From assembly GCA_001821765.1 (NCBI GenBank), contig MHOA01000008.1:167-64166 (forward strand): 64,000 bases of DNA, in the 5' to 3' direction. Below the pieces are notes generated by a model. The model was not told the DNA's origin. It did not search any database and saw nothing but the letters and a program-made list of their open reading frames with translations. A program made the translations under genes and the position numbers. The stretch is from Candidatus Ryanbacteria bacterium RIFCSPLOWO2_12_FULL_44_26 (lineage in GTDB: Bacteria; Patescibacteriota; Minisyncoccia; Ryanbacterales; HO2-45-13). This document shows positions 3,932 to 25,018 of the stretch, piece after piece; within the stretch, counting starts at the first letter, position 1; every line of letters starts with the position of its first letter.

Positions 3932-4936
3932 ATGACAAAAAAGAACTTATACGTCGTTACAATCCTGATGGCACTTACAATCATGCCGATCTTCTATGCT
4001 CACGGGGAAACCCAAACGCTCACGAATGTCGGCTTTATACAGGGCAACATTTGGTATTCCGAAGAACCTTTTTTTGACGGTGATCATATAAGAATTTATA
4101 CCGTCCTTCATAATAATAGCGGACAGGATATTACCGGAACAATCGTATTCTATGACAATGAGACTCCAATAAACAGCAATAATTTCTCCATCGCGAACGA
4201 GAGAGTTCAAGACCAATGGACTGATTGGCAAGCAGTGTATGGCTCTCATAAAATCTCCGCATCCATTACGAATGCGAAGATGATATTGCCCGGCGGCGAG
4301 GAAGTTACTATTGTTTTACAAAACAGTCAGACCGGAGTCAGCGACCGTTTTGTTGACATTGATACCGATGAAGACGTTATTGGAAATAGCGCGGATGCCG
4401 ATGATGATAACGACGGCATGCCGGATACGAAAGAAGTCAGCATTGGAACAAATCCTCTCAAACAAGACACCGACGAAGATGGGATAAACGATGCCAAAGA
4501 CACAGATCCCCTTATTCCAGAAAAACCAGCCGCTTCCCAAACACCCCAAACAACGGAAACCTCTCCCGAGCAGGCAAACAGCATCCTTCCTTTTGCAACA
4601 CATGCAATAGCATTAATAGCCAACAAGATAGAAACAGCAAGGAAGGCGTTACTTGCGCAGATTGAAAGAAGGATCGAACACTTAAAAGCGGAGATGAAGG
4701 AGCAGAACATAAAAAAAGAATCCGTTCAGCCGACAACGAAAAAGAACGGAGCGGAGGCACGACTAGGGACAAAAGCGATGCTGAAAGATTCCGGTATTTT
4801 CCAATATCTCAATCTCTATATACATTATGCGCTGCTTTTCATTTTAAAATATAAAATACTTTTTTACTTCGTTTTAGCGCTTCTGTTTTACTATCTTACT
4901 CGGTTGTTTTACAGAAAAGTGTTCCGTTCATATTAA
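3932..4936 (+). CDS. Secreted Asp-rich Ca-binding (thrombospondin type-3-like repeat) protein with a C-terminal membrane anchor.
   Basis: N-terminal signal peptide MTKKNLYVVTILMALTIMPIFYAHG. Repeats DIDTDEDVIG, DADDDNDGMPD, DTDEDGINDAKDTD are present. The C-terminal stretch is hydrophobic. Confidence 0.55.
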   Translation: MTKKNLYVVTILMALTIMPIFYAHGETQTLTNVGFIQGNIWYSEEPFFDGDHIRIYTVLHNNSGQDITGTIVFYDNETPINSNNFSIANERVQDQWTDWQAVYGSHKISASITNAKMILPGGEEVTIVLQNSQTGVSDRFVDIDTDEDVIGNSADADDDNDGMPDTKEVSIGTNPLKQDTDEDGINDAKDTDPLIPEKPAASQTPQTTETSPEQANSILPFATHAIALIANKIETARKALLAQIERRIEHLKAEMKEQNIKKESVQPTTKKNGAEARLGTKAMLKDSGIFQYLNLYIHYALLFILKYKILFYFVLALLFYYLTRLFYRKVFRSY

Positions 4937-5872: not shown

Positions 5873-6181
5873 ATGATAAAGTTTTTTGCGCCGGCGACCT
5901 TTAAAGTAACTGGTTGATATTATTTTACCAAATATTGATATTATTGTAACCGTAAATCATATAGTTCCCATATAATACTGGCGCGCAATCACTCAAACGG
6001 AACTTCAATGCTCTGCTGGCTGTCTTTTATGAAACTGCGAACGAGTATATAGGATATTTATACAACACAACCTTTTTCACCGACAAGTAGGCTTGCATTG
6101 AGACGGAAATGAAGATTTAGAGACTATATAAAAATTGACACTGGCATACTCTCCGGTAAGATACGTCTATAAGAAAACCTC

Positions 6182-7467: not shown

Positions 7468-7548
7468 GTTGGAAAAAACGCTTCTTCCTGCACAGTAATA
7501 CTTGAACAGATGCGGGAATGAGCTGGAGCTACACCCTTCTAACGGGAT

Positions 7549-8367
7549 TTACTTATCCATGCGTCTGTTGTACGACCTCCCCAAAAGGGTCGCGATAAAA
7601 ATAAAAATGCTAAATAAGACAATGGTCGCGCCGGAGGCCGTATTGAAATAAAAAGAGCCCATCAGCCCCATGAATACGCTTAATACCCCTATGAGCAATG
7701 CGTATACCATCATCTGGCGGAATGTTCGGCTGATGTTTTTGGCTGCCGCGGCGGGGATGACCAGAAGCGCCGGGACAAGAATAATGCCGACCACCTTGAT
7801 GCTCATAGCGGTTACAACGGCGAGGAGTCCCAGAAACAGATATTCATAGAAACGAACTCTTACTCCAGAAACTTGAGCGATTTCCCGATTAAAGGTGATT
7901 TTGAAAAGAGGCTTCCAAGTAAGAAAAAATATAATGCCAACGAGAACGGAAATGAAAAGGGCAGTTATTACATCCTGAAAGGAAATGGCAATGATATCGC
8001 CAAAGAGGAATTGAAAAAGGTCAACACGGTATCCTTCAAGAAGCCCGATAATAAAGATGCCAAGAGCTGCCGCTCCAGAGAAAAAAATTCCGATAATGGT
8101 ATCAAGCGACTGCGTTGGCGCATGGTTTTGGAGATATCCCATGCCGAGTGCCAAGAAAAGCGATACAAACACCGCCGCCACTATGGGATTCATCGCAAAT
8201 AAAAAGCCGAGAGCGATTCCCGCAAAAGCAAAGTGAGCCACCGCGTCGCCGAAAAACGCGGAACGCCTCAGCACCACAAAAACGCCGAGAAGCGAGAGCG
8301 TCGCCCCCATGAGAACGCCGGCAACGAGCGCCCTTTGCATAAATTGAAGCTGAAAAATCTCAAACAT
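7549..8367 (-). CDS. Metal (Zn/Mn) ABC transporter permease, ABC-3 / ZnuB-like.
   Basis: 272 aa and polytopic. GDAVAHFAFAGIALG and the overall pattern are typical of ZnuB/MntB-family permeases. Its 8-nt overlap with the upstream ATPase gene indicates an operon. Confidence 0.85.
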   Translation of the reverse strand: MFEIFQLQFMQRALVAGVLMGATLSLLGVFVVLRRSAFFGDAVAHFAFAGIALGFLFAMNPIVAAVFVSLFLALGMGYLQNHAPTQSLDTIIGIFFSGAAALGIFIIGLLEGYRVDLFQFLFGDIIAISFQDVITALFISVLVGIIFFLTWKPLFKITFNREIAQVSGVRVRFYEYLFLGLLAVVTAMSIKVVGIILVPALLVIPAAAAKNISRTFRQMMVYALLIGVLSVFMGLMGSFYFNTASGATIVLFSIFIFIATLLGRSYNRRMDK

Positions 8368-10308: not shown

Positions 10309-10575
10309 TCAACCCGTTTCTGCCCCGTAATTGTTTACCCCGTAAGAAGCCGTAGGCTTACAATCCTTCTGAGGAGTACCCAAGGTTAAAAACAATTCTA
10401 CAATCTCGTAGTCATGAAAACCACCTAGTCCTGATTGCAGAAATCTTTCCCGAAGGCGCTTTCTATGCCCTTCGCTTTTGTGTTTTTCACTCGTTTTATC
10501 AACTTTTGGCGCTTCGACTTTGTTTACAGTGAGCATAGTCGAACCGCTCAGCATAAATAAATCCTTGATTTTCAT
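10309..10575 (-). pseudogene. RadC-like (UPF0758) N-terminal fragment lacking the JAB/MPN domain; likely a truncated remnant.
   Basis: MKIKDL...HRKRLRERFLQSGLGGFHDYEIVELFLTLGTPQKD matches the RadC N-terminal pattern (MxIKDLP..ERPRERL..G...LSD.ELLAILL.TG). The ORF stops after 88 aa. No HNHPSG-type motif is present in any downstream frame. Confidence 0.4.
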
Positions 10576-10989: not shown

Positions 10990-11244
10990 TTATTCTTGTC
11001 CTAAGAGCCGCAATGTTTTTCCATATTCCTTAACAGCTTTCTTTACAGCAGCTTCAATGGCGTTCTTTTTTTCTTCTGTGAGAGTTTTCCCTAGGATATC
11101 GGGTAAATCGTTTTTATGAATGGCAAAATTACGGCCAATTTTTCGGGCCTTTATGGCGCCGGATTTAATTTTCTTAAAAACCGCTATTCGGCTTATACCC
11201 AATAACTTCGCCACCTCGCTTGTGGAAAGAAATTCTTTGTCCAT
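10990..11244 (-). CDS. Small excisionase-family HTH DNA-binding protein. It is a putative antitoxin to Doc, or alternatively the Xis-like factor of the decayed element.
   Basis: LSTSEVAKLLGISRIAVFKKIKSGAIKARKIGRNFAIHKNDL is a typical HTH_17/Xis-type domain. Size is 84 aa. It sits 56 nt upstream of doc on the same strand. Confidence 0.55.
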   Translation of the reverse strand: MDKEFLSTSEVAKLLGISRIAVFKKIKSGAIKARKIGRNFAIHKNDLPDILGKTLTEEKKNAIEAAVKKAVKEYGKTLRLLGQE

Positions 11245-11302
11245 ATTATTGAATAATAGTCCATGTTAACTGCTGTGTCAATGGTTAACGTATGTTAATT
11301 TA

Positions 11303-11790
11303 AACCGTCTCACTCGTGTCCGGAGAAATAATCGCGAAGGTTCGAACCCCGAAGGAAAGCTCGACCTGCTTTTAGACGCTCATTTGGACGGCACGATTTC
11401 ACGCGAGGAATACACTGCCAAGAAAGAGAAACTTATTACCGAAAAGGCCGAGCTTTCCGAAAAATCAAAGGATTTTGAACGAAACGGCAATCATTGGCTC
11501 GAACCCGGCCCGGCAATTCGTTTTAGCGGCTCAACAAGCCAAAATTATCGCTTTGCAAGAAAATCCCGTCGCGAGACGGGATTTTCTCAAAAGAATTGGC
11601 TCGAACCACGCCCGGCAATTCGTTTTAGCGGCTCAACAAGCCAAAATTATCGCTTTGCAAGAAAATCCCGTCGCGAGACGGGATTTTCTCAAAAGAATTG
11701 GCTCGAACCACGTTTTGCGCTCCCAAGCGATTTGCTTTGAACCCAAAAAGTCGTGGAAAATTCTCGCCGATTTGCCCGCCGACCCCGCCG
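11303..11790 (+). pseudogene. Decayed C-terminal remnant of a large serine recombinase (coiled-coil/tail region only), carrying a frameshift and a tandem duplication.
   Basis: Frame A reads ...LDLLLDAHLDGTISREEYTAKKEKLITEKAELSEKSKDFERNGNHWLEP, the recombinase C-terminal coiled-coil pattern. The tail continues in another frame (EPARQFVLAAQQAKIIALQENPVARRDFLKRIGSNHVLRSQ...). No catalytic N-terminal domain lies upstream; a stop occurs at 11300. Confidence 0.5.
11494..11712 (+). repeat. 102-bp tandem direct repeat (2 full copies plus a 15-nt partial third) inside the recombinase remnant.
   Basis: Copies are at 11494-11595 and 11596-11697 and differ by a 2-nt substitution. The unit is bounded by the 13-nt microhomology ATTGGCTCGAACC. 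Each copy contains the hairpin CCCGTCGCGAGACGGG. Confidence 0.9.
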
Positions 11791-11822
11791 TGGCGGGGGA
11801 GGTGAACTCGTATCATCCTATT

Positions 11823-11897
11823 TGGCTCCGCGGGCAGGACTCGAACCTGCAACCAACGCGTTAACAGCGCGCTGCTCTACCATTGAGCTACCGCGGA
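11823..11897 (-). tRNA. tRNA-Asn (anticodon GTT), CCA encoded.
   Basis: Reverse complement is TCCGCGG-TA-GCTCAATGGTAGAGC-A-GCGCG-CTGTTAA-CGCGT-TGGTT-GCAGGTTCGAGTCCTGC-CCGCGGA-G-CCA. Cloverleaf folded by eye. Confidence 0.85.
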
Positions 11898-20199: not shown

Positions 20200-20592
20200 T
20201 GTTGCCTCCTTTCGAGGTTCAATTTTTGCTGTCACACTTTGCAACAGCTGTTATCGGATGTGATACCGATAATGAGTAATACTAGCATAGCCACATCAGC
20301 ATATCAAGGATCAGCATCGAGCCGCTTCTTAAAAAAATCTTATAAAAAACCTCTTTTGCCACTATTGACCCTTCGATTTTGATCAGGGTCAATCCTAGGC
20401 CCGTCGAATGGATTGATAGATCCATTTCCTTTTCGACAAAAAAGCTCTTTCAAATCCTAGCCGAGCGGCGGCTTTACCGCTACGAGACTTCCTTTGTCCA
20501 CTTGCGAAATCCTGACTGGCGGTGTCTGTTTGAAAATATCCGAACGGAACTGGTGTGTATCCGCGCAATGTATTATAGTGCTTGATTTGCTG

Positions 20593-21273
20593 CTATTCCT
20601 TAACGATTTTGAAATTAAACAAAGGTGTTTTGAGCGCACCCCACAGTCGCAACCAAATCGGCAGGAGCATTTCGGTGCCGCGCGCGGTGGTGATATCGCC
20701 GAGATCAATAATATTCTTCCACCCGTAGCTTTTCGCAATCTCGGCAACCTTGGCTTTTGCGTCAGCATCATTACCGCATATAAAAAGATCGTGGTCTGCC
20801 TTTGCTAGTTGCGCTGGATTCACTTGCAAATACGCGTTCAGTGTATTGAATGTCTTAACAACTTTGGTATCCGGCAGGGCTTTTTGGATTTGCTCGCCTA
20901 AAGAATCAGTGTTGCAAACTGAAAGAAACGGCGGCATACCTTGAGAGAAATCTAATGGATTGGCAATATCAACAAGAATTTTACTGGCAAGCTCGGATTT
21001 GAGCATAGAAAGCACAGATACCGCCACCTCGCCTTTGAGCGCATCAAACACTATATCGGCGTCTTTTGCCACGTCTCTAAAAGTAGCAAGTGTTATGTCT
21101 TGGTGATCTTTGTGCCACTCGGCAAACGGTGGATTGCCCATGGCATCTTTTTTAATGTTGGCACGCGTCTTTTCAATATCCTGTGTGCCGAGCATGACTG
21201 TGTGACCAAGCTCCGCGAGGCGCGTGGCATGAATCCTACCTACCATCCCTGTTCCTAAAATTCCGATTTTCAC
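20593..21273 (-). CDS. NAD(P)-binding Rossmann-fold oxidoreductase (NADPH-dependent F420 reductase / ProC-like family).
   Basis: MKIGILGTGMVGRIHATRLAELGH is the dinucleotide-binding motif. Its length and overall similarity fit the F420_oxidored family. Confidence 0.55.
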   Translation of the reverse strand: MKIGILGTGMVGRIHATRLAELGHTVMLGTQDIEKTRANIKKDAMGNPPFAEWHKDHQDITLATFRDVAKDADIVFDALKGEVAVSVLSMLKSELASKILVDIANPLDFSQGMPPFLSVCNTDSLGEQIQKALPDTKVVKTFNTLNAYLQVNPAQLAKADHDLFICGNDADAKAKVAEIAKSYGWKNIIDLGDITTARGTEMLLPIWLRLWGALKTPLFNFKIVKE

Positions 21274-21286
21274 AAGATTATTTTAT

Positions 21287-21679
21287 TTACTGCTCCGTTG
21301 TTTGTCCATTAAAATGCTCTTCTTTTTCTTCGGCTTTGGTTGTATGAATCGTACCGTCTTTATGTTCAGGCGGAGAATACACCGTATATAGTTTCAATTC
21401 CTTATTGCCGGTATTTATGATGTTGTGCCATGTTCCTGCTGGGATAATGATGGCGTAATCATCATGAAGCTCGTACTCTTCAGAATTGTTCAAAATAGCT
21501 TTTGCATCGCCCCGCTCTATGCGAATGAATTGATCAAGCTTATGCATCTCGTTACCTATTTCATCGCCAGGCCGAATATTCATCAAGACTAGTTGTGAAT
21601 TTTTCGCGGTATAAAGTACGCGACGATAGTCTGTGTTTTTAAGGGTTTTTTCTTCAATGTTTGTTATATATCCCTTCAT
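21287..21679 (-). CDS. Cupin-domain protein.
   Basis: 130 aa. GDEIGNEMHKLDQFIRIERG...AIIIPAGTWHNIINTG is a cupin-type metal-binding pattern. Confidence 0.6.
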   Translation of the reverse strand: MKGYITNIEEKTLKNTDYRRVLYTAKNSQLVLMNIRPGDEIGNEMHKLDQFIRIERGDAKAILNNSEEYELHDDYAIIIPAGTWHNIINTGNKELKLYTVYSPPEHKDGTIHTTKAEEKEEHFNGQTTEQ

Positions 21680-21840
21680 GGTGTTATGAATTTAATTTAA
21701 CTATATGGACTCGACTTTTCCATAATTATACAAATCTTCTCATTATTTTATTAAATCTTTCATTGAACATCAAGTTTTTCTTTGGCGGAATACAGATTCG
21801 AGCGTGCGGAGCACGCACAGTAGTTCTTTGTAAAAAAAGA

Positions 21841-21863
21841 GTGGCGAGGATTTTCCTCGCCAC
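21841..21863 (-). terminator. Intrinsic terminator for the HD-like gene.
   Basis: GTGGCGAGG-ATTTT-CCTCGCCAC, with a T-run after the hairpin on the minus strand. Confidence 0.75.
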
Positions 21864-21875
21864 CGTGAAGCGACT

Positions 21876-22459
21876 TCAGTCGCGGACTCGTCTGGCGCCG
21901 AGCCAAGGATCGTTCTCCTGCAAAGGATGGTCAAACCAAAGACGGCCACTAGCCACATCGCACATATGGGCGGCGCAAGCGAGCGGACCCATAACACGAT
22001 GACGATTCGAATAGTCGTTCAATTCGCCCTCGATATACTTCATGCCGTTCTCCTGTTCGGGAGTAAATACGACACCGTATTCGGTGAGCTTCGCCATTCG
22101 GAAACGCTGATGGTCTTTCTTGTTCTGCATAGTTGCCTTGTAATGAAACTGACCATCATCGCGAAACTCGTATTTCCACGGCTTCTCGACATCGTGCAAA
22201 TACACCACGAGAAGCAAATCCGAAAGGGAAAACGGCAGAGGACGAATAAAGCCCAACCGCTCATAAAGAACAACTGCAATGTTCATAATTTCCTGAACAT
22301 GATCGAAGTAGCCGCCGGGCCAATCCTGGTGATTGTTAGTAGAACCCTGTACCGTCTGGAACAGTCTTCGATTGTCCGTGAGGATTCGAGTGCAGGCAGA
22401 ACGGTTGGGCTCGTCAATCATTTCGAGCATTTGTTCTATTGTGTAGTAATTCGGCTTCA
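21876..22459 (-). CDS. Hypothetical protein, possible HD-domain phosphohydrolase.
   Basis: The start MKPNYY has a strong SD (AAGGAGGT). H...YLHDVEKP...AAHMCD suggests an HD fold, but this assignment is weak. Confidence 0.45.
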
Positions 22460-22579
22460 TGAGACCTCCTTTTGATGACAATGAGCTTATTGTGATGTTA
22501 TAAAAAAATGTTCTAAAAATCAAATGAAAACAGAACCCCCTTCAAGTTTCTATTTTTAAGAAATCATTCTGAAAAATTG

Positions 22580-22631
22580 CCCCTACAAAATATGCTTCGA
22601 GCCGATTTGTTTCAGGTTCTTTGGCGGTTTG
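22580..22631. repeat. Copy 1 of a ~52-bp intergenic direct repeat (47/52 identical to 23950-24001).
   Basis: CCCCTACAAAATATGCTTCGAGCCGATTTGTTTCAGGTTCTTTGGCGGTTTG. It lies just downstream of the Hint gene stop and ~120 nt upstream of the HD-like gene start. Confidence 0.85.
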
Positions 22632-22643
22632 TCTTTGAGGCTT

Positions 22644-23927
22644 TTAATGAAGCGTACTATCGAAAAGAATACCATTGGCCCAATAGAATCCGGTTTCGCC
22701 AGACGGCAGTATATCGTGTGTTGCGTCTTTACCGTAAGGAACGCGCTCGGCGCTTACAACAGAAACGCCATCGTACAGGTCGCCGGGCGCAAGATTGCCA
22801 ACAGTGCGTCCATCGATGAGAGGATGTCCGGGAGAAACGAACAACTCCCGGCCATCATCAAGAACCAAGTGAACCATTTGATGATTTAATGCAACCGGCA
22901 CCCTGCTGGTTTTAACGACAATTCCGGCGACACGCTCACCAGACTTGTTGATTGTCCAAACTGATGTTCCTTTCTGTAATTGTTGTACCGGAACCGCACC
23001 AAAAGGTGTATCAATCAATGTATTTAGAGTAAGACATATAGGACAAGGCCGAATATATCCTTTAAGTTGGCAGAAATAAGGGGGAGGGGGCTCGCCTGGA
23101 TACCCAACTGGCGAACCACAACCTTGTACACATTCATAATCTGATGGACAACTTGTATCGCTTGGGCCATTACACTGCCTTCCAACCGGACTAGCACAAA
23201 TATTTTTATGACATAAATTTCCTGCAACACAATCCAAATCTACACTGCACCGATTGCCTTCTTTCAATTTGCACTCTCCTTTTATTACAGTATGAGTGGG
23301 TACGCATGACGGGTCATTCTCTGGGCAAGCGGTTCCAATGCTCTGTGTTTCCTCGCAAATATATTGCTGGGAAGGACAATCAGAATCCTTTTTGCATTCA
23401 GTAACTGGTTGTGGATTTATTGCTGGGCATTTTGCAAATTCACAGTTTTCACCGGTACGGCTCACGTATGATCCATCAGGGCATTGCTTAACTTCTTGGG
23501 TACAGACAAGACCAGTTACTTCCGTCTCTACTTTAAACCCGTGAGATTCCGAAGGAATTTTATTTTTAAGATTCGGCAGATTTCCCAATTCTTTTTCGAG
23601 CATTACTTTAATACAAGGTTCTCCACCACATGCTCCAACTCCAACGCCGACAACGCCCGATTTATCAAGAAACGACTGCGACAAAAGCTCTTTTGCCTGC
23701 TCGATTGTTAATTTTTCAACAAAATGCCTCCCGTCCGGAGTCCAACATTGCCGAGGATAGCTTTCTGCTACAGGATATTCTGCTTTCACACATTCCTCAA
23801 AAGAGTTGATTTCTTTCGCGGGTTTTTGGAAGAAAGTTTGCCGAGTACCAATAAAGTAACCCGCTATGACAGCAAATATCACTATCCCAATAATTATTAT
23901 GATATTTATAAATCCTTTTTGATTCAT
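22644..23927 (-). CDS. Membrane-anchored Cys-rich protein with a C-terminal Hint (Hedgehog/intein-like, BIL-type) domain.
   Basis: N-terminal TM (INIIIIIGIVIFAVIAGYFIG). Multiple C..C..C repeats are present. The C-terminal ~140 aa begins CLTLNTLIDTPFGAVPVQQLQKGTSVWT...VHLVLDDGRELFVSPGHPL and ends ...ANGILFDSTLH, which is the Hint-domain pattern. Confidence 0.6.
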   Translation of the reverse strand: MNQKGFINIIIIIGIVIFAVIAGYFIGTRQTFFQKPAKEINSFEECVKAEYPVAESYPRQCWTPDGRHFVEKLTIEQAKELLSQSFLDKSGVVGVGVGACGGEPCIKVMLEKELGNLPNLKNKIPSESHGFKVETEVTGLVCTQEVKQCPDGSYVSRTGENCEFAKCPAINPQPVTECKKDSDCPSQQYICEETQSIGTACPENDPSCVPTHTVIKGECKLKEGNRCSVDLDCVAGNLCHKNICASPVGRQCNGPSDTSCPSDYECVQGCGSPVGYPGEPPPPYFCQLKGYIRPCPICLTLNTLIDTPFGAVPVQQLQKGTSVWTINKSGERVAGIVVKTSRVPVALNHQMVHLVLDDGRELFVSPGHPLIDGRTVGNLAPGDLYDGVSVVSAERVPYGKDATHDILPSGETGFYWANGILFDSTLH

Positions 23928-23949
23928 AAACTATAAAAAACTTCTTTTA

Positions 23950-24001
23950 CCCCTCTAAAATATGGTTCGAGCCGATTTGTTTCAGGTTCTTTAGCAGTTT
24001 G
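23950..24001. repeat. Copy 2 of the ~52-bp direct repeat, 23 nt upstream of the Hint gene start.
   Basis: CCCCTCTAAAATATGGTTCGAGCCGATTTGTTTCAGGTTCTTTAGCAGTTTG. Confidence 0.85.
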
Positions 24002-24055
24002 GGATGTTCTCGGCTCCGACTTTCATTTTGTCCGCTCACCGAGAAAGTGATAGCG

Positions 24056-24855
24056 TTAGGAATTATCCGTGTATTTCTTTCGCAGGAATTCAGTAAAATT
24101 TCTCATTTCCTGTTGTGTGGTTTTCAAAATTTCTGGAATATGATCTCGTTCCTCCTTTGTTAGTTTATCCCGAAATTGATCTTTCCGATTATTCGGAATA
24201 TAAAATTTCCCGCCTCCGTGAACACGAAAACCCCCAACACTTCTATCTGCAATAATACGCATTTCATCTGTCGCATCTCGCCCATGATAAAACTCCTGTA
24301 GTAAAGTCTCCACTTTTACTAGAAGTTTTTCGTTTTCTTCCTCCCATTTTTTGTACTCTGTAGTTTCCTCTTGTTTTATGATCAATCGGGTTGCCTCCTT
24401 CCAGGCCTCATCATTTTCCGCGTGTAATACCTGATCTACGGTTATTCCGTATTTTTTTGCAACCTGTTCGTATATTTCTTCTTCGTGTTCAAAGCGCCAT
24501 TTCGGTTTGTCAGGAGCCTCCACTTCAACCCACGGAACTGGATATCCGTGTTCTGACTCGCTTTCAAAATGACCCTCACAAGAAGCAGAGGTGGGGATTC
24601 CCATAACATTATACATCGCTACGGTTTCCTTAATGCCTTCATCAACCCCCTTACCCAAGCGATCGCGCCAACTATTAACTTCTTTTATCATCGCTTGTAG
24701 TTTATTCAATTTTTCTGATTCTTGTGAGGGAATTTTTTTGTCTGTTTGCTCTGGTTCCTTGTTCTCAAATTGTGGTGGTCCTTCAGGTTTCATAAAATTA
24801 TTCGCCAATACGCCGCGCGCGAGGAGCATTTCGAGACCTACGCCATCGTTCATTT
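24056..24855 (-). CDS. Hypothetical acidic protein, probable start MNDGVGLEMLL...
   Basis: The ORF-track ORF 24056..25012 reads through tRNA-Ser, so I trimmed it to the first ATG downstream of the tRNA. I recognised no domains. Confidence 0.45.
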
Positions 24856-24928
24856 TCTTCTTCTTCTTCTGCCATTTCCTAACTAGCGGTGTGTACTTAA
24901 AAAAATCCGAATTCTGAATTTTAAAAAT

Positions 24929-25018
24929 TGGCGGAGAGGGTGGGATTTGAACCCACGAGAGACTTGCATCTCTGCTCGCTCTCCAAGCGAGTGCCTTAGA
25001 CCACTCAGCCACCTCTCC
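24929..25018 (-). tRNA. tRNA-Ser (anticodon GGA), type II with a long variable arm, CCA encoded.
   Basis: Reverse complement is GGAGAGG-TG-GCTGAGTGGTCTAAGGC-ACTCGC-TTGGAGA-GCGAG-CAGAGATGCAAGTCTCTC-GTGGGTTCAAATCCCAC-CCTCTCC-G-CCA. Confidence 0.85.

What the first reader, a model, noticed from the sequence alone, without database searches (positions are those of the whole stretch)
22580..24001. Two 52-bp, 90%-identical direct repeats bracket the Hint-domain gene.
The copies lie 23 nt upstream of the Hint gene start and just past its stop, ~120 nt upstream of the next gene on the same strand. Neither copy is coding in any consistent frame. They could be a shared 5'-leader or operator, such as the binding site of one regulator for both genes or a cis-regulatory RNA. 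Alternatively they could be the duplicated junctions left by insertion of the Hint gene as a cassette. I found no third copy elsewhere in the window.
Basis: seen in the sequence. Interest (0 to 1): 0.55.

Follow-up and report, generated by a model that had tools for sequence, protein, structure and literature searches.

The report
Recombinase-derived junction repeats flank Hint gene
The two repeats around the Hint gene are real, and they are copies of a junction sequence built from pieces of a large serine recombinase gene, which marks gene-cassette boundaries next to such recombinases in several Patescibacteria genomes, rather than a shared RNA leader or operator.

Summary
There are two 55-nt direct repeats (49/55 identical, with a 27-nt invariant core) at 23947-24001 and 22577-22631. 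Both lie on the gene (minus) strand and bracket the Hint gene.

They are not an RNA element and probably not a promoter or operator. Each repeat fuses two pieces of a large serine recombinase (LSR) gene. About 18 nt match codons ~47-53 and about 30 nt match codons ~445-458. Each repeat ends at the same point, usually TG, where it joins a half-palindrome ("arm").

The same block occurs in seven other loci representing six other Patescibacteria assemblies. In five of them it is the cargo-side end of a ~250-nt module. That module sits divergently upstream of an intact LSR gene, whose own reading frame carries the unsplit site.

In the window, copy A and a piece at 20340-20567 are the two halves of one such module, separated by a ~3.5-kb inversion. 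Copy B is a second solo junction. LSR gene remnants lie beside tRNA-Asn and tRNA-Ser. The region sits in a variable island between htpX and dnaG.

My best reading is that these are attR-like recombination junctions that delimit cassettes. No rearrangement was seen in this population. Whether the sites are still used is not known.

The parts
23947..24001 (-). Repeat copy A (55 nt): recombinase-derived 'c' piece plus 'core' piece plus the first bases of the arm
   Evidence: 17/18 nt match LSR gene nt 140-157, and 26/29 match LSR nt 1333-1361.
23934..24043 (-). Extended copy A: 3' half of the module linker, c, core, the junction (TA here, TG elsewhere) and the arm GAGGGGTAAAAGAAGTTTTTTATAG. It ends 3 nt before the Hint ATG.
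   Evidence: Aligns to L023 206-323 and L090. nhmmer E 1.8e-26.
22577..22631 (-). Repeat copy B (55 nt): c plus core plus the start of a degenerate arm. Junction TG at 22587-22586.
22562..22645 (-). Extended copy B. It includes a short upstream stretch (GCCTCAAAGA) that resembles the 'a' piece (LSR codons ~27-36) seen before the solo copy in L023.
   Evidence: nhmmer E 1.4e-20. Compared with L023 1162-1199. The 'a'-like assignment is weak.
22644..23927 (-). Hint-domain gene (427 aa; N-terminal membrane helix, Cys-rich middle, Hint_2 at residues 297-371). It is the cargo between junctions A and B.
20340..20567 (+). attL-like half of the same module. It consists of arm' (20340-20364), X (homologous to the LSR 3' coding end, with a 48-nt palindromic insertion flanked by ATTGA at 20364-20416) and the 5' half of the linker hairpin.
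   Evidence: blastn 81% over 141 nt to L023. nhmmer E 4.5e-28. Alignments.
20593..22460 (-). Second cargo block: 194-aa HD-like gene (21876-22460), cupin (21287-21679) and F420/NADP oxidoreductase-like gene (20593-21273). It lies between junction B and the inverted X piece.
24873..24911 (+). A further X-3'-like relic, 18 nt from tRNA-Ser (24929-25018, minus strand). This is the position that LSR 3' ends occupy next to tRNAs in relatives.
   Evidence: nhmmer E 7e-05; the last ~40 nt are 74% identical to 20511-20548. tRNA.
11312..11861 (+). Remnant of an LSR gene 3' part (about the last 140 codons) with a 102-nt tandem duplication (11493-11712). It runs into tRNA-Asn (11823-11897, minus strand).
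   Evidence: tblastn E 1e-13 to 6e-15. TRF. Sequence. tRNA.

Best explanation
The two repeats are solo copies of one end of a recombinase-associated DNA module.

**The module in relatives.** In related Patescibacteria, a ~500-aa large serine recombinase (LSR) gene is preceded, divergently, by a ~250-nt module with this layout: arm' | X - linker - c - core | arm -> cargo gene.
- X is the continuation of the LSR reading frame that follows the core in the intact gene.
- c and core are LSR codons ~47-53 and ~445-458.
- arm' and arm are 22-27-nt inverted repeats that would together form a palindrome.

**What this layout resembles.** It is what an LSR-type integration would leave. A site inside the recombinase ORF (core-TG-X, attP-like) recombines with a palindromic target (arm'-TG-arm, attB-like). 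The products are an attL-like junction (arm'|X) and an attR-like junction (core|arm).

**The window.** Repeats A and B are both attR-like junctions. A and the piece at 20340-20567 are the two halves of one module, split at the apex of the linker hairpin by a ~3.5-kb inversion. Undoing that inversion gives module -> Hint -> B -> 194aa-cupin-oxidoreductase. L023 has the same layout (module, cargo 1, solo junction, cargo 2).

**What the repeats are.** They are therefore cassette boundaries made by site-specific recombination, not expression signals.

**Shown versus inferred.** Shown: the homology, the shared breakpoints, and the recurrence of the architecture. Inferred: that the LSR cuts at these junctions, the inversion history, and whether the sites are still used. 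In this clonal population they are fixed, and only LSR gene remnants lie within 64 kb.
For: **Repeat matches recombinase-associated sequence.**
- An nhmmer profile of the repeat hits full copies 220-240 nt upstream of LSR genes in L081 (E 6e-18) and L083 (E 3e-13), and also in L062. It also hits the LSR genes' own 3' coding region (L081, E 2e-07).
- The same pattern appears in L094 and in L095/L096.
- Piecewise matches to the LSR genes are 17/18 nt for the 5' part and 26/29-30 for the 3' part.

**Shared breakpoints.**
- Nine copies from seven assemblies align with the same breakpoints.
- X begins exactly where the core ends in the LSR ORF. In each genome X is near-identical to that genome's own LSR 3' end, while the sequence to the left of the junction differs.

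**Flanking arms.**
- The arms are 22-27-nt inverted repeats, 96-100% complementary, flanking 234-256 nt.
- In the loci scanned, every arm occurrence lies next to either core or X.

**The recombinase family.**
- The proteins carry Resolvase, Recombinase and Zn_ribbon_recom domains (precomputed Pfam; the zinc ribbon is listed for most but not all hits). 7681 relatives score E<=1e-20.
- They are distant from SprA, A118 integrase, CcrB and XisF.

**Evidence in the window.**
- Copy A and the X-site align to complementary, non-overlapping parts of the L023 and L090 modules.
- LSR remnants lie beside tRNA-Asn and tRNA-Ser.
- The region is a lineage-specific 10.8-kb insert between htpX and dnaG. The same gap is 2.8-3.6 kb in relatives, which lack the element.
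Against: - No intact LSR lies in the window, and the rest of the source genome could not be searched.
- No empty palindromic target, excised circle or alternative arrangement was observed. All Rifle aquifer contigs read are at least 99.98% identical across the 4.8 kb and colinear.
- Two attR-type sites in direct orientation are not a canonical LSR substrate pair (established LSR behaviour, from my own knowledge). The origin of copy B is therefore unexplained.
- The core and X arms flanking the junction show little dyad symmetry beyond about 5 nt (by eye).
- Several junctions depart from TG: TA in copy A and in L083, and small deletions in the attL of L062 and L081.
- The extra 89-104-nt perfect inverted repeats (U/rcU) and the 'a' piece around the cargo in relatives do not follow from a simple integration model.
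- L090 has a 1-nt insertion inside the 27-nt core.
Confidence: 0.68

Rival explanations
1. The repeats are a shared promoter, or an operator bound by one regulator, that co-regulates the Hint gene and the next gene.
For: All nine copies lie upstream of a gene and point the same way as it. The copies are not independent, however.

A 27-nt run is invariant in A, B and L023. The probability of such a run is about 0.09 for A versus B and about 0.02 for four sequences.

A weak sigma-70-like match, TTTAGA-18-TATAGT, overlaps the arm of copy A.
Against: - Distances to the start codon range from 19 to about 230 nt.
- Canonical promoters lie downstream of the arm in L081 and L062, with promoter-like TTGACA motifs in L090 and L094.
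- The CTGAAA hexamer is replaced in L081 and L094.
- The -10-like hexamer of copy A lies only 2 nt from the ATG.
- The sequence is a mosaic of recombinase ORF pieces.
Confidence: 0.12
2. The repeats encode a structured cis-regulatory RNA (a leader or riboswitch) present on both transcripts.
For: The only support is their position in 5' untranslated or intergenic regions on the gene strand.
Against: - Fold energies are no better than those of shuffled sequence on either strand, with or without flanks.
- There is no Rfam hit at the gathering threshold or at E<=5.
- The differences between A and B do not fall in any shared predicted helix, because the two copies fold differently.
Confidence: 0.03
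3. The repeats are a simple duplication created when the Hint gene inserted as one cassette (a target-site duplication or an attL/attR pair of a single event). Precise loss of the Hint gene would then leave one copy.
For: Direct repeats bracket a single gene. L023 shows the same pattern around a different gene.
Against: - A versus B is 49/55, no closer than either copy is to L023 or L090.
- Both copies are the same junction type (core|arm).
- The left flank of A continues into module linker, which B lacks.
- No Hint-less contig appeared among the contigs read for the Hint protein or the 194-aa protein. The index lists them in 58 and 52 blocks respectively.
Confidence: 0.1
4. The repeats are inert debris of decayed recombinase pseudogenes, with no site function now or in the past.
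For: The window holds other LSR fragments. A and B are not homogenised with each other. The population shows no variation.
Against: - The same c|core fusion and the same core|arm breakpoint recur in seven assemblies. Independent decay would not produce this.
- In relatives, the inverted copies within one genome are 98-100% identical over 89-125 nt, although the genomes differ strongly from one another.
- The 55-mer is 89-93% identical between loci whose Hint proteins (window versus L090) are about 77% identical over two thirds of their length.
Confidence: 0.15

Closest known systems
attL/attR junctions of large serine integrase elements (phiC31, Bxb1, A118, SPbeta SprA, SCCmec Ccr, Anabaena XisF)
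   Same: - The recombinase has the Resolvase, Recombinase and zinc-ribbon architecture.
- The junctions are hybrids that join an element arm to a target arm at a short common centre, mostly TG.
- The target arms are palindromic.
   Different: - The undivided site lies inside the recombinase's own reading frame, about 50 codons before the stop. An integration would therefore split the gene.
- The integrated object next to the gene is a ~250-nt miniature made only of recombinase-gene pieces.
- Long stretches are shared between copies.
- The proteins are below 32% identical to annotated phage integrases and score far below the CcrB and XisF cut-offs.
Invertible promoters (invertons) and multiple-inversion systems (Hin/Gin, the R64 shufflon, the Mycoplasma vsa locus)
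   Same: - Short inverted repeats flank a 230-260-bp segment right next to a recombinase gene.
- Further inverted repeats interleave with cargo genes.
- The cargo includes putative surface proteins.
   Different: - Only one orientation was seen in six LSR-adjacent loci.
- No promoter was identified inside the segment.
- The recombinase is a large serine recombinase, not a small invertase or a tyrosine recombinase (the last comparison is from my own knowledge).
Integron cassette arrays
   Same: Arrays of promoter-proximal cargo genes are each preceded by the same recombination-site-like repeat, next to a divergently transcribed recombinase gene. L023 and the reconstructed window layout both show this.
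   Different: - There is no IntI tyrosine recombinase.
- The repeat is not an attC-type folded hairpin.
- The cargo genes appear to carry their own promoters.
Phage systems in which attP lies inside a gene, so that integration truncates its product (integration-dependent immunity of mycobacteriophages; from my own knowledge, not checked here)
   Same: The crossover site lies within a coding region, so the product changes between the integrated and excised states.
   Different: In those systems the gene is a repressor and the integrase is a tyrosine recombinase. Here the site is in the serine recombinase gene itself, and no phage context was found.

Membership tests
Serine-integrase attachment-site junction (attR-like) | A large serine recombinase gene is associated with the site | tested here: inconclusive
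   Met in five other assemblies: L062, L081, L083, L094 and L095/L096. For L023 only 13 nt of a putative LSR start codon region are visible. In the window there are only LSR remnants at 11312-11861 and 24873-24911. The rest of the genome was not searchable.
Serine-integrase attachment-site junction (attR-like) | The site is a hybrid: an element arm joined to a target arm at a short centre shared by all four sites | tested here: met
   core|arm, arm'|X and core|X (in the ORF) share the breakpoint. The centre is TG in most junctions, with exceptions in copy A, L083 attR, and the attL of L062 and L081.
Serine-integrase attachment-site junction (attR-like) | Each att site has imperfect dyad symmetry | tested here: inconclusive
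   The target arms are 96-100% complementary. The core and X arms are symmetric only for about 5 nt around the centre (by eye).
Serine-integrase attachment-site junction (attR-like) | The reciprocal states exist (an empty target site, or an excised circle) | tested here: not met
   No arm'-arm palindrome without an insert was found in any fetched locus. No variant contigs were found. The sample is small.
Miniature non-autonomous mobile element (MITE-like) | Terminal inverted repeats, no coding capacity, derived from an autonomous relative, and present in several copies | tested here: inconclusive
   The arms act as 22-27-nt terminal inverted repeats, and the content derives from the LSR gene. 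Only 1-2 copies were seen per locus, and no target-site duplication was seen.
Inverton / shufflon | Both orientations of the segment are found in a population | tested here: not met
   The orientation relative to the LSR gene is the same in L062, L081, L083, L094, L095 and L096. Reads were not available.
Integron attC site | A tyrosine integrase IntI and a folded imperfect-palindrome site | tested here: not met
   The recombinase is of the serine type. The repeat has no significant fold.
cis-regulatory RNA (riboswitch or leader) | A conserved secondary structure, or membership of a curated RNA family | tested here: not met
Sigma-70 promoter / operator | Conserved -35 and -10 hexamers at a fixed distance from the gene | tested here: not met
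   The hexamers are not conserved. The distance to the start codon varies from 19 to about 230 nt. Better promoters lie downstream.

The most novel reading that the evidence does not exclude
The repeats may belong to an undescribed recombination system of Patescibacteria.

In this reading, a conserved chromosomal large serine recombinase carries one recombination site inside its own reading frame. It uses that site, together with palindromic partner sites and 90-125-nt perfect inverted repeats, to capture, invert or exchange small gene cassettes. These cassettes include surface proteins such as the Hint-domain protein.

Functionally this would be a counterpart of integrons or shufflons, built on a serine integrase. 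The window would hold a detached, inverted two-cassette array of this system.
Probability: 0.2. Interest if true: 0.8.

Novelty: new variant of a known kind. Interest (0 to 1): 0.55.

Why it matters
Little is known about how the small genomes of Patescibacteria (CPR bacteria) gain and rearrange genes. Four full-text searches turned up no description of this recombinase family or its module, only three unrelated papers.

The family is very large, with 7681 relatives at E<=1e-20. The locus architecture recurs in at least six assemblies. Its pieces are kept identical within a genome, which points to ongoing recombination.

If the sites are active, they would give a handle on cassette exchange or phase variation of surface proteins in episymbiotic bacteria. 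They would also provide a new class of serine-integrase sites with defined partner sequences.

For this window the practical result is more modest. The repeats should be annotated as recombination-junction relics that bound an acquired island, not as regulatory elements.

Tried and rejected
- **RNA element.** I folded both copies on both strands, with and without flanks, and searched Rfam at the gathering threshold and at permissive thresholds. Nothing was found.
- **tRNA fragment as att core.** The GGTTCGAGCC motif looks like a T-arm, but no matching stems exist (by eye), and ARAGORN finds no tRNA there.
- **Third copy in the window.** None was found.
- **Genome-wide copy number in the source genome.** This could not be done. 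The source assembly did not appear among the hits of the genome scan or the metagenome scan. Those scans returned about 30 and about 39 chance 18-mer hits, plus two true relatives (L023, L062).
- **Viral origin.** The 18-mer is absent from viral contigs. An LSR search of viral contigs gave only two contigs, each holding a disrupted 117-codon LSR start.
- **Hint-less allele.** Not found.
- **Orthologous loci in relatives.** htpX anchors L084-L087 show conserved flanks but different filling and no element, so no pre-insertion state was recovered.
- **Test of constraint on the 27-nt core.** Fisher tests are circular because the core was defined from the data. The unbiased run-length simulation gives only p about 0.09 and about 0.02.
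- **In-frame deletion.** I considered that c|core is an in-frame deletion of the recombinase, and rejected it. The two pieces are read in different frames.
Full report
**Observation**

The window carries two 55-nt direct repeats, at 22577-22631 (copy B) and 23947-24001 (copy A). They are 49/55 identical and 1370 nt apart. Their shared 27-mer occurs exactly twice in 64 kb even with three mismatches allowed, and it never occurs in shuffled sequence. Low-stringency blastn and two nhmmer profiles find no third full copy.

All the genes concerned are on the minus strand:
- Copy A ends 19 nt before the ATG of the Hint-domain gene (22644-23927; 427 aa; weak Hint_2 match).
- Copy B starts 12 nt after the Hint stop codon.
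- Copy B ends 116 nt before the ATG (22460) of a 194-aa gene.

**Not an RNA element, and probably not a promoter**

Neither strand of either copy, with or without flanks, folds better than shuffled sequence (z-scores +1.03 to -0.20). Rfam gives only the three tRNAs in the window and nothing near the repeats, even at E<=5.

The best promoter-like match overlapping copy A (TTTAGA-18-TATAGT) puts its -10 hexamer 2 nt from the ATG. Other evidence against a promoter role is given below.

**Source organism and population**

The Hint protein is encoded on Rifle aquifer contigs, including GCA_001819835.1 (MHNP01000013.1). Every contig read for the Hint protein or the 194-aa protein has the same gene order. 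Across the 4.8 kb around the repeats these contigs are at least 99.98% identical. No allele lacking the Hint gene was seen.

**Relatives of the repeat**

- A scan of one genome per species with an 18-mer from the core gave about 30 chance hits and one true relative. This is L023 (DAIDBF010000053.1). It has two identical copies 928 nt apart, each about 110 nt upstream of a different gene on the same strand.
- The metagenome scan gave one more true relative, L062.
- In L062 the repeat lies about 250 nt from the start of a divergently transcribed large serine recombinase (LSR) gene.
- That protein belongs to a very large Patescibacteria family. There are 7681 proteins at E<=1e-20, many of them 70-87% identical. 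Precomputed Pfam lists Resolvase and Recombinase domains for all listed hits, and Zn_ribbon_recom for most.
- The family is only distantly related to SprA, A118 integrase, CcrB, XisF and annotated phage integrases.

**The repeat is made of recombinase-gene pieces**

An nhmmer profile of the repeat finds two kinds of match:
- A full copy 220-240 nt upstream of the LSR gene in L081 (E 6e-18), L083 (E 3e-13), L094 and L095/L096.
- A weaker match inside the 3' coding region of the LSR genes themselves (L081, E 2e-07).

At the DNA level:
- The first 18 nt of each window copy match LSR gene nt 140-157 (codons 47-53, KTAKEPG) at 17/18.
- The next 29-30 nt match LSR nt ~1333-1362 (codons ~445-454, LKQIGSNCIL) at 26/29-30.
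- The two pieces lie about 1.19 kb apart in the gene. In the repeat they are joined at a shared CTG.

Nine copies from seven assemblies align with the same internal fusion and the same 3' breakpoint. After that breakpoint all of them continue into a conserved "arm", GGG-AAAAGAAA-TTTTT.

**The module**

Next to the LSR genes the repeat is the cargo-side end of a ~250-nt module with this layout: arm' | X - linker - c - core | arm.

- **X** starts exactly at the base that follows the core in the intact LSR reading frame (..IL|QN..). In each genome it is near-identical to that genome's own LSR 3' end (91-100% over 101-125 nt). The sequence to the left of the junction differs: it is arm' in the module and core in the gene.
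- **arm' and arm** are 22-27-nt inverted repeats, 96-100% complementary, enclosing 234-256 nt. In L062 they would join into a perfect 48-bp palindrome.
- **The junction dinucleotide** is TG in most cases.

This is the pattern expected if a site inside the recombinase gene (core-TG-X, attP-like) had recombined with a palindromic target (arm'-TG-arm, attB-like). The products would be arm'|X (attL-like) and core|arm (attR-like). The module would then be a miniature integrated element built only from recombinase-gene pieces. That the LSR actually catalyses this reaction is inferred, not shown.

In the loci scanned, every arm found lies beside core or X. No empty palindrome was found.

**Further structure in relatives**

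In L062, L081, L083, L094 and L095 the cargo gene is followed by a short piece of LSR codons ~27-40 ("a"). After that comes a perfect inverted copy (89-104 nt, 98-100% identical) of the distal X plus linker ("U").

These inverted copies are almost identical within a genome but strongly diverged between genomes. That pattern indicates ongoing exchange between them. I cannot derive this part of the structure from a simple integration model.

The cargo genes differ between loci: 87, 181, 260, 223 and 204 aa, and 237 plus 140 aa in L023. Several have canonical promoters between the arm and the start codon. Examples are TTGACA-18-TATAAT in L081 and TTGTAA-17-TATAAG in L062. L090 has a TTGACA motif downstream of its module. 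The -35-like hexamer within the repeat is not conserved either. Together this argues against the repeat being the promoter.

**The window reconstructed**

- Copy A extends to 24043. It aligns to the part of the L023 and L090 modules running from the 3' half of the linker hairpin to the arm.
- A conserved non-coding piece at 20340-20567, on the opposite strand, aligns to the other part of the module: arm', X and the 5' half of the same hairpin. The two alignments leave a gap of about 20 nt at the hairpin apex.
- A and this piece are therefore the two halves of one module.
- Inverting 20568-24043 restores the layout module -> Hint -> copy B -> 194-aa gene, cupin, F420/NADP oxidoreductase. L023 shows the same layout: module, cargo 1, solo junction, cargo 2. 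This inversion is an inference.
- Copy B is a solo junction preceded by a weak "a"-like stretch. How it arose is not explained.
- A and B are not a recent duplication. They share 49/55 positions, compared with 49-52 of 55-56 shared with L023 and L090.

**Context**

- The window contains no intact LSR.
- It does hold an LSR 3' remnant with a 102-nt tandem duplication, which runs into tRNA-Asn (11312-11861).
- It also holds an X-like relic 18 nt from tRNA-Ser (24873-24911). In L082 and L083 the LSR genes end next to tRNA-Ala.
- The whole region lies between htpX and dnaG, which flank a variable gap in relatives. The gap is 2.8-3.6 kb there, with different genes and no element, against 10.8 kb here.
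- The closest Hint homolog on a long contig (P0244, 77% identity over 67% of the query) has a module 3.2 kb away. With a sample of one this is only suggestive.

**Are the sites still used?**

Evidence that they may be:
- The 55-mer is 89-93% identical between the window, L023 and L090. The Hint proteins of the window and L090 are only about 77% identical over two thirds of their length.
- The 27-nt core is invariant in A, B and L023. The probability of such a run is about 0.09 for A versus B and about 0.02 for four sequences, which is weak support.

Evidence that they may not be:
- A and B are not homogenised with each other.
- There is no structural variation in the population.
- Only LSR remnants lie nearby.
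- Two junctions of the same type are not a canonical substrate pair for a serine integrase (from my own knowledge).

**Verdict**

The origin of the repeats as recombinase-derived junction sequences is well supported. I put about 0.9 on the origin and 0.68 on the full statement, which includes the att-like mechanism. Their present activity is open.

Four literature searches found no description of this recombinase family or its module in Patescibacteria; the only hits were three unrelated papers.

Noticed in passing
window 11312-11861 (+), 11493-11712, 11823-11897 (-): A truncated large serine recombinase gene (about the last 140 codons). It contains a 102-nt tandem duplication (2.2 copies, 98% identical) bounded by ATTGGCTCGAACC, and it runs into the 3' end of tRNA-Asn on the opposite strand.
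   Followed up: partly
window 24873-24911 (+), next to tRNA-Ser 24929-25018 (-): A third X-like fragment, 74% identical to 20511-20548. It lies 18 nt from tRNA-Ser, which suggests that a recombinase gene once sat between copy A and this tRNA. The 265-aa ORF (24056-24853), which has no known family, now occupies that space.
   Followed up: partly
window 20364-20416 (+): A 48-nt insertion with an internal palindrome (TTGACCCT..AGGGTCAA), flanked by the direct repeat ATTGA. It lies exactly at the arm'|X junction of the window's attL-like piece and is absent from L023 and L090.
   Followed up: no
L062 150-249/796-895; L081 2701-2802/3778-3879; L083 4738-4826/5782-5870; L094 8528-8631/9743-9846; L095 8625-8713/9782-9870: Perfect or near-perfect 89-104-nt inverted repeats enclose the junction repeat plus the cargo gene. 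Beside the outer copy lies a 22-37-nt piece of recombinase codons ~27-40. The simple integration model does not explain this. The arrangement looks like a second invertible segment.
   Followed up: partly
LSR genes: L081 ~4148-4167, L083 ~6120-6138, L082, L095 10118-10137: Codons ~40-45 of the recombinase genes form a small DNA hairpin (for example GCCTCG-TTTTG-CGAGGC). The stem stays complementary through changes on both sides in different genomes (GCCTCT..AGAGGC in L083), even though the encoded amino acids change. In relatives the 'a' and 'c' pieces break on either side of this hairpin.
   Followed up: no
L088 4-354 and L089 60-410 (IMG/VR contigs): Two predicted viral contigs begin with the first 117 codons of a recombinase of this family. 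The reading frame then breaks off after ..FPTFWFESTPQG into unrelated sequence. Either the recombinase gene was interrupted by an insertion or these are provirus boundary artefacts.
   Followed up: no
L083 6001-7518 (+) and 11256-12812 (-): Two recombinase genes of this family converge on a 3.7-kb segment bounded by two tRNA-Ala genes in opposite orientation (7527-7600 on the minus strand, 11202-11277 on the plus strand). Only the first gene has the module upstream.
   Followed up: no
L090 9979-10023 / 10310-10354: In L090 the inverted repeat around the module extends 45 nt beyond the conserved arms (93% complementary). This suggests that the module sits inside a long pre-existing palindrome, which has the shape of a bidirectional terminator.
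   Followed up: no
one search hit list; L082 start; L062; L088/L089: Many recombinase clusters are known only from 1.5-5-kb contigs, and several contigs end at or just upstream of the recombinase start. This fits assembly breaks at a repeated or heterogeneous module.
   Followed up: no
window 12103-32924 versus L084-L087: The gene order UvrA - GroES - GroEL - LemA - HtpX - [variable gap] - DnaG - RpoD is conserved in relatives whose HtpX is 70-74% identical. The gap is a lineage-specific island of 10.8 kb here. Besides the features reported above, it holds two pilin-like (N_methyl) genes and a glucosamine-6-phosphate isomerase-like gene.
   Followed up: partly
one search hit list: The C-terminal two thirds of the Hint protein (Cys-rich region plus Hint domain) are 60-79% identical in hundreds of Patescibacteria proteins that carry different N-terminal domains, such as Gmad2 Ig-like or TIG. 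This indicates domain shuffling in the family.
   Followed up: no
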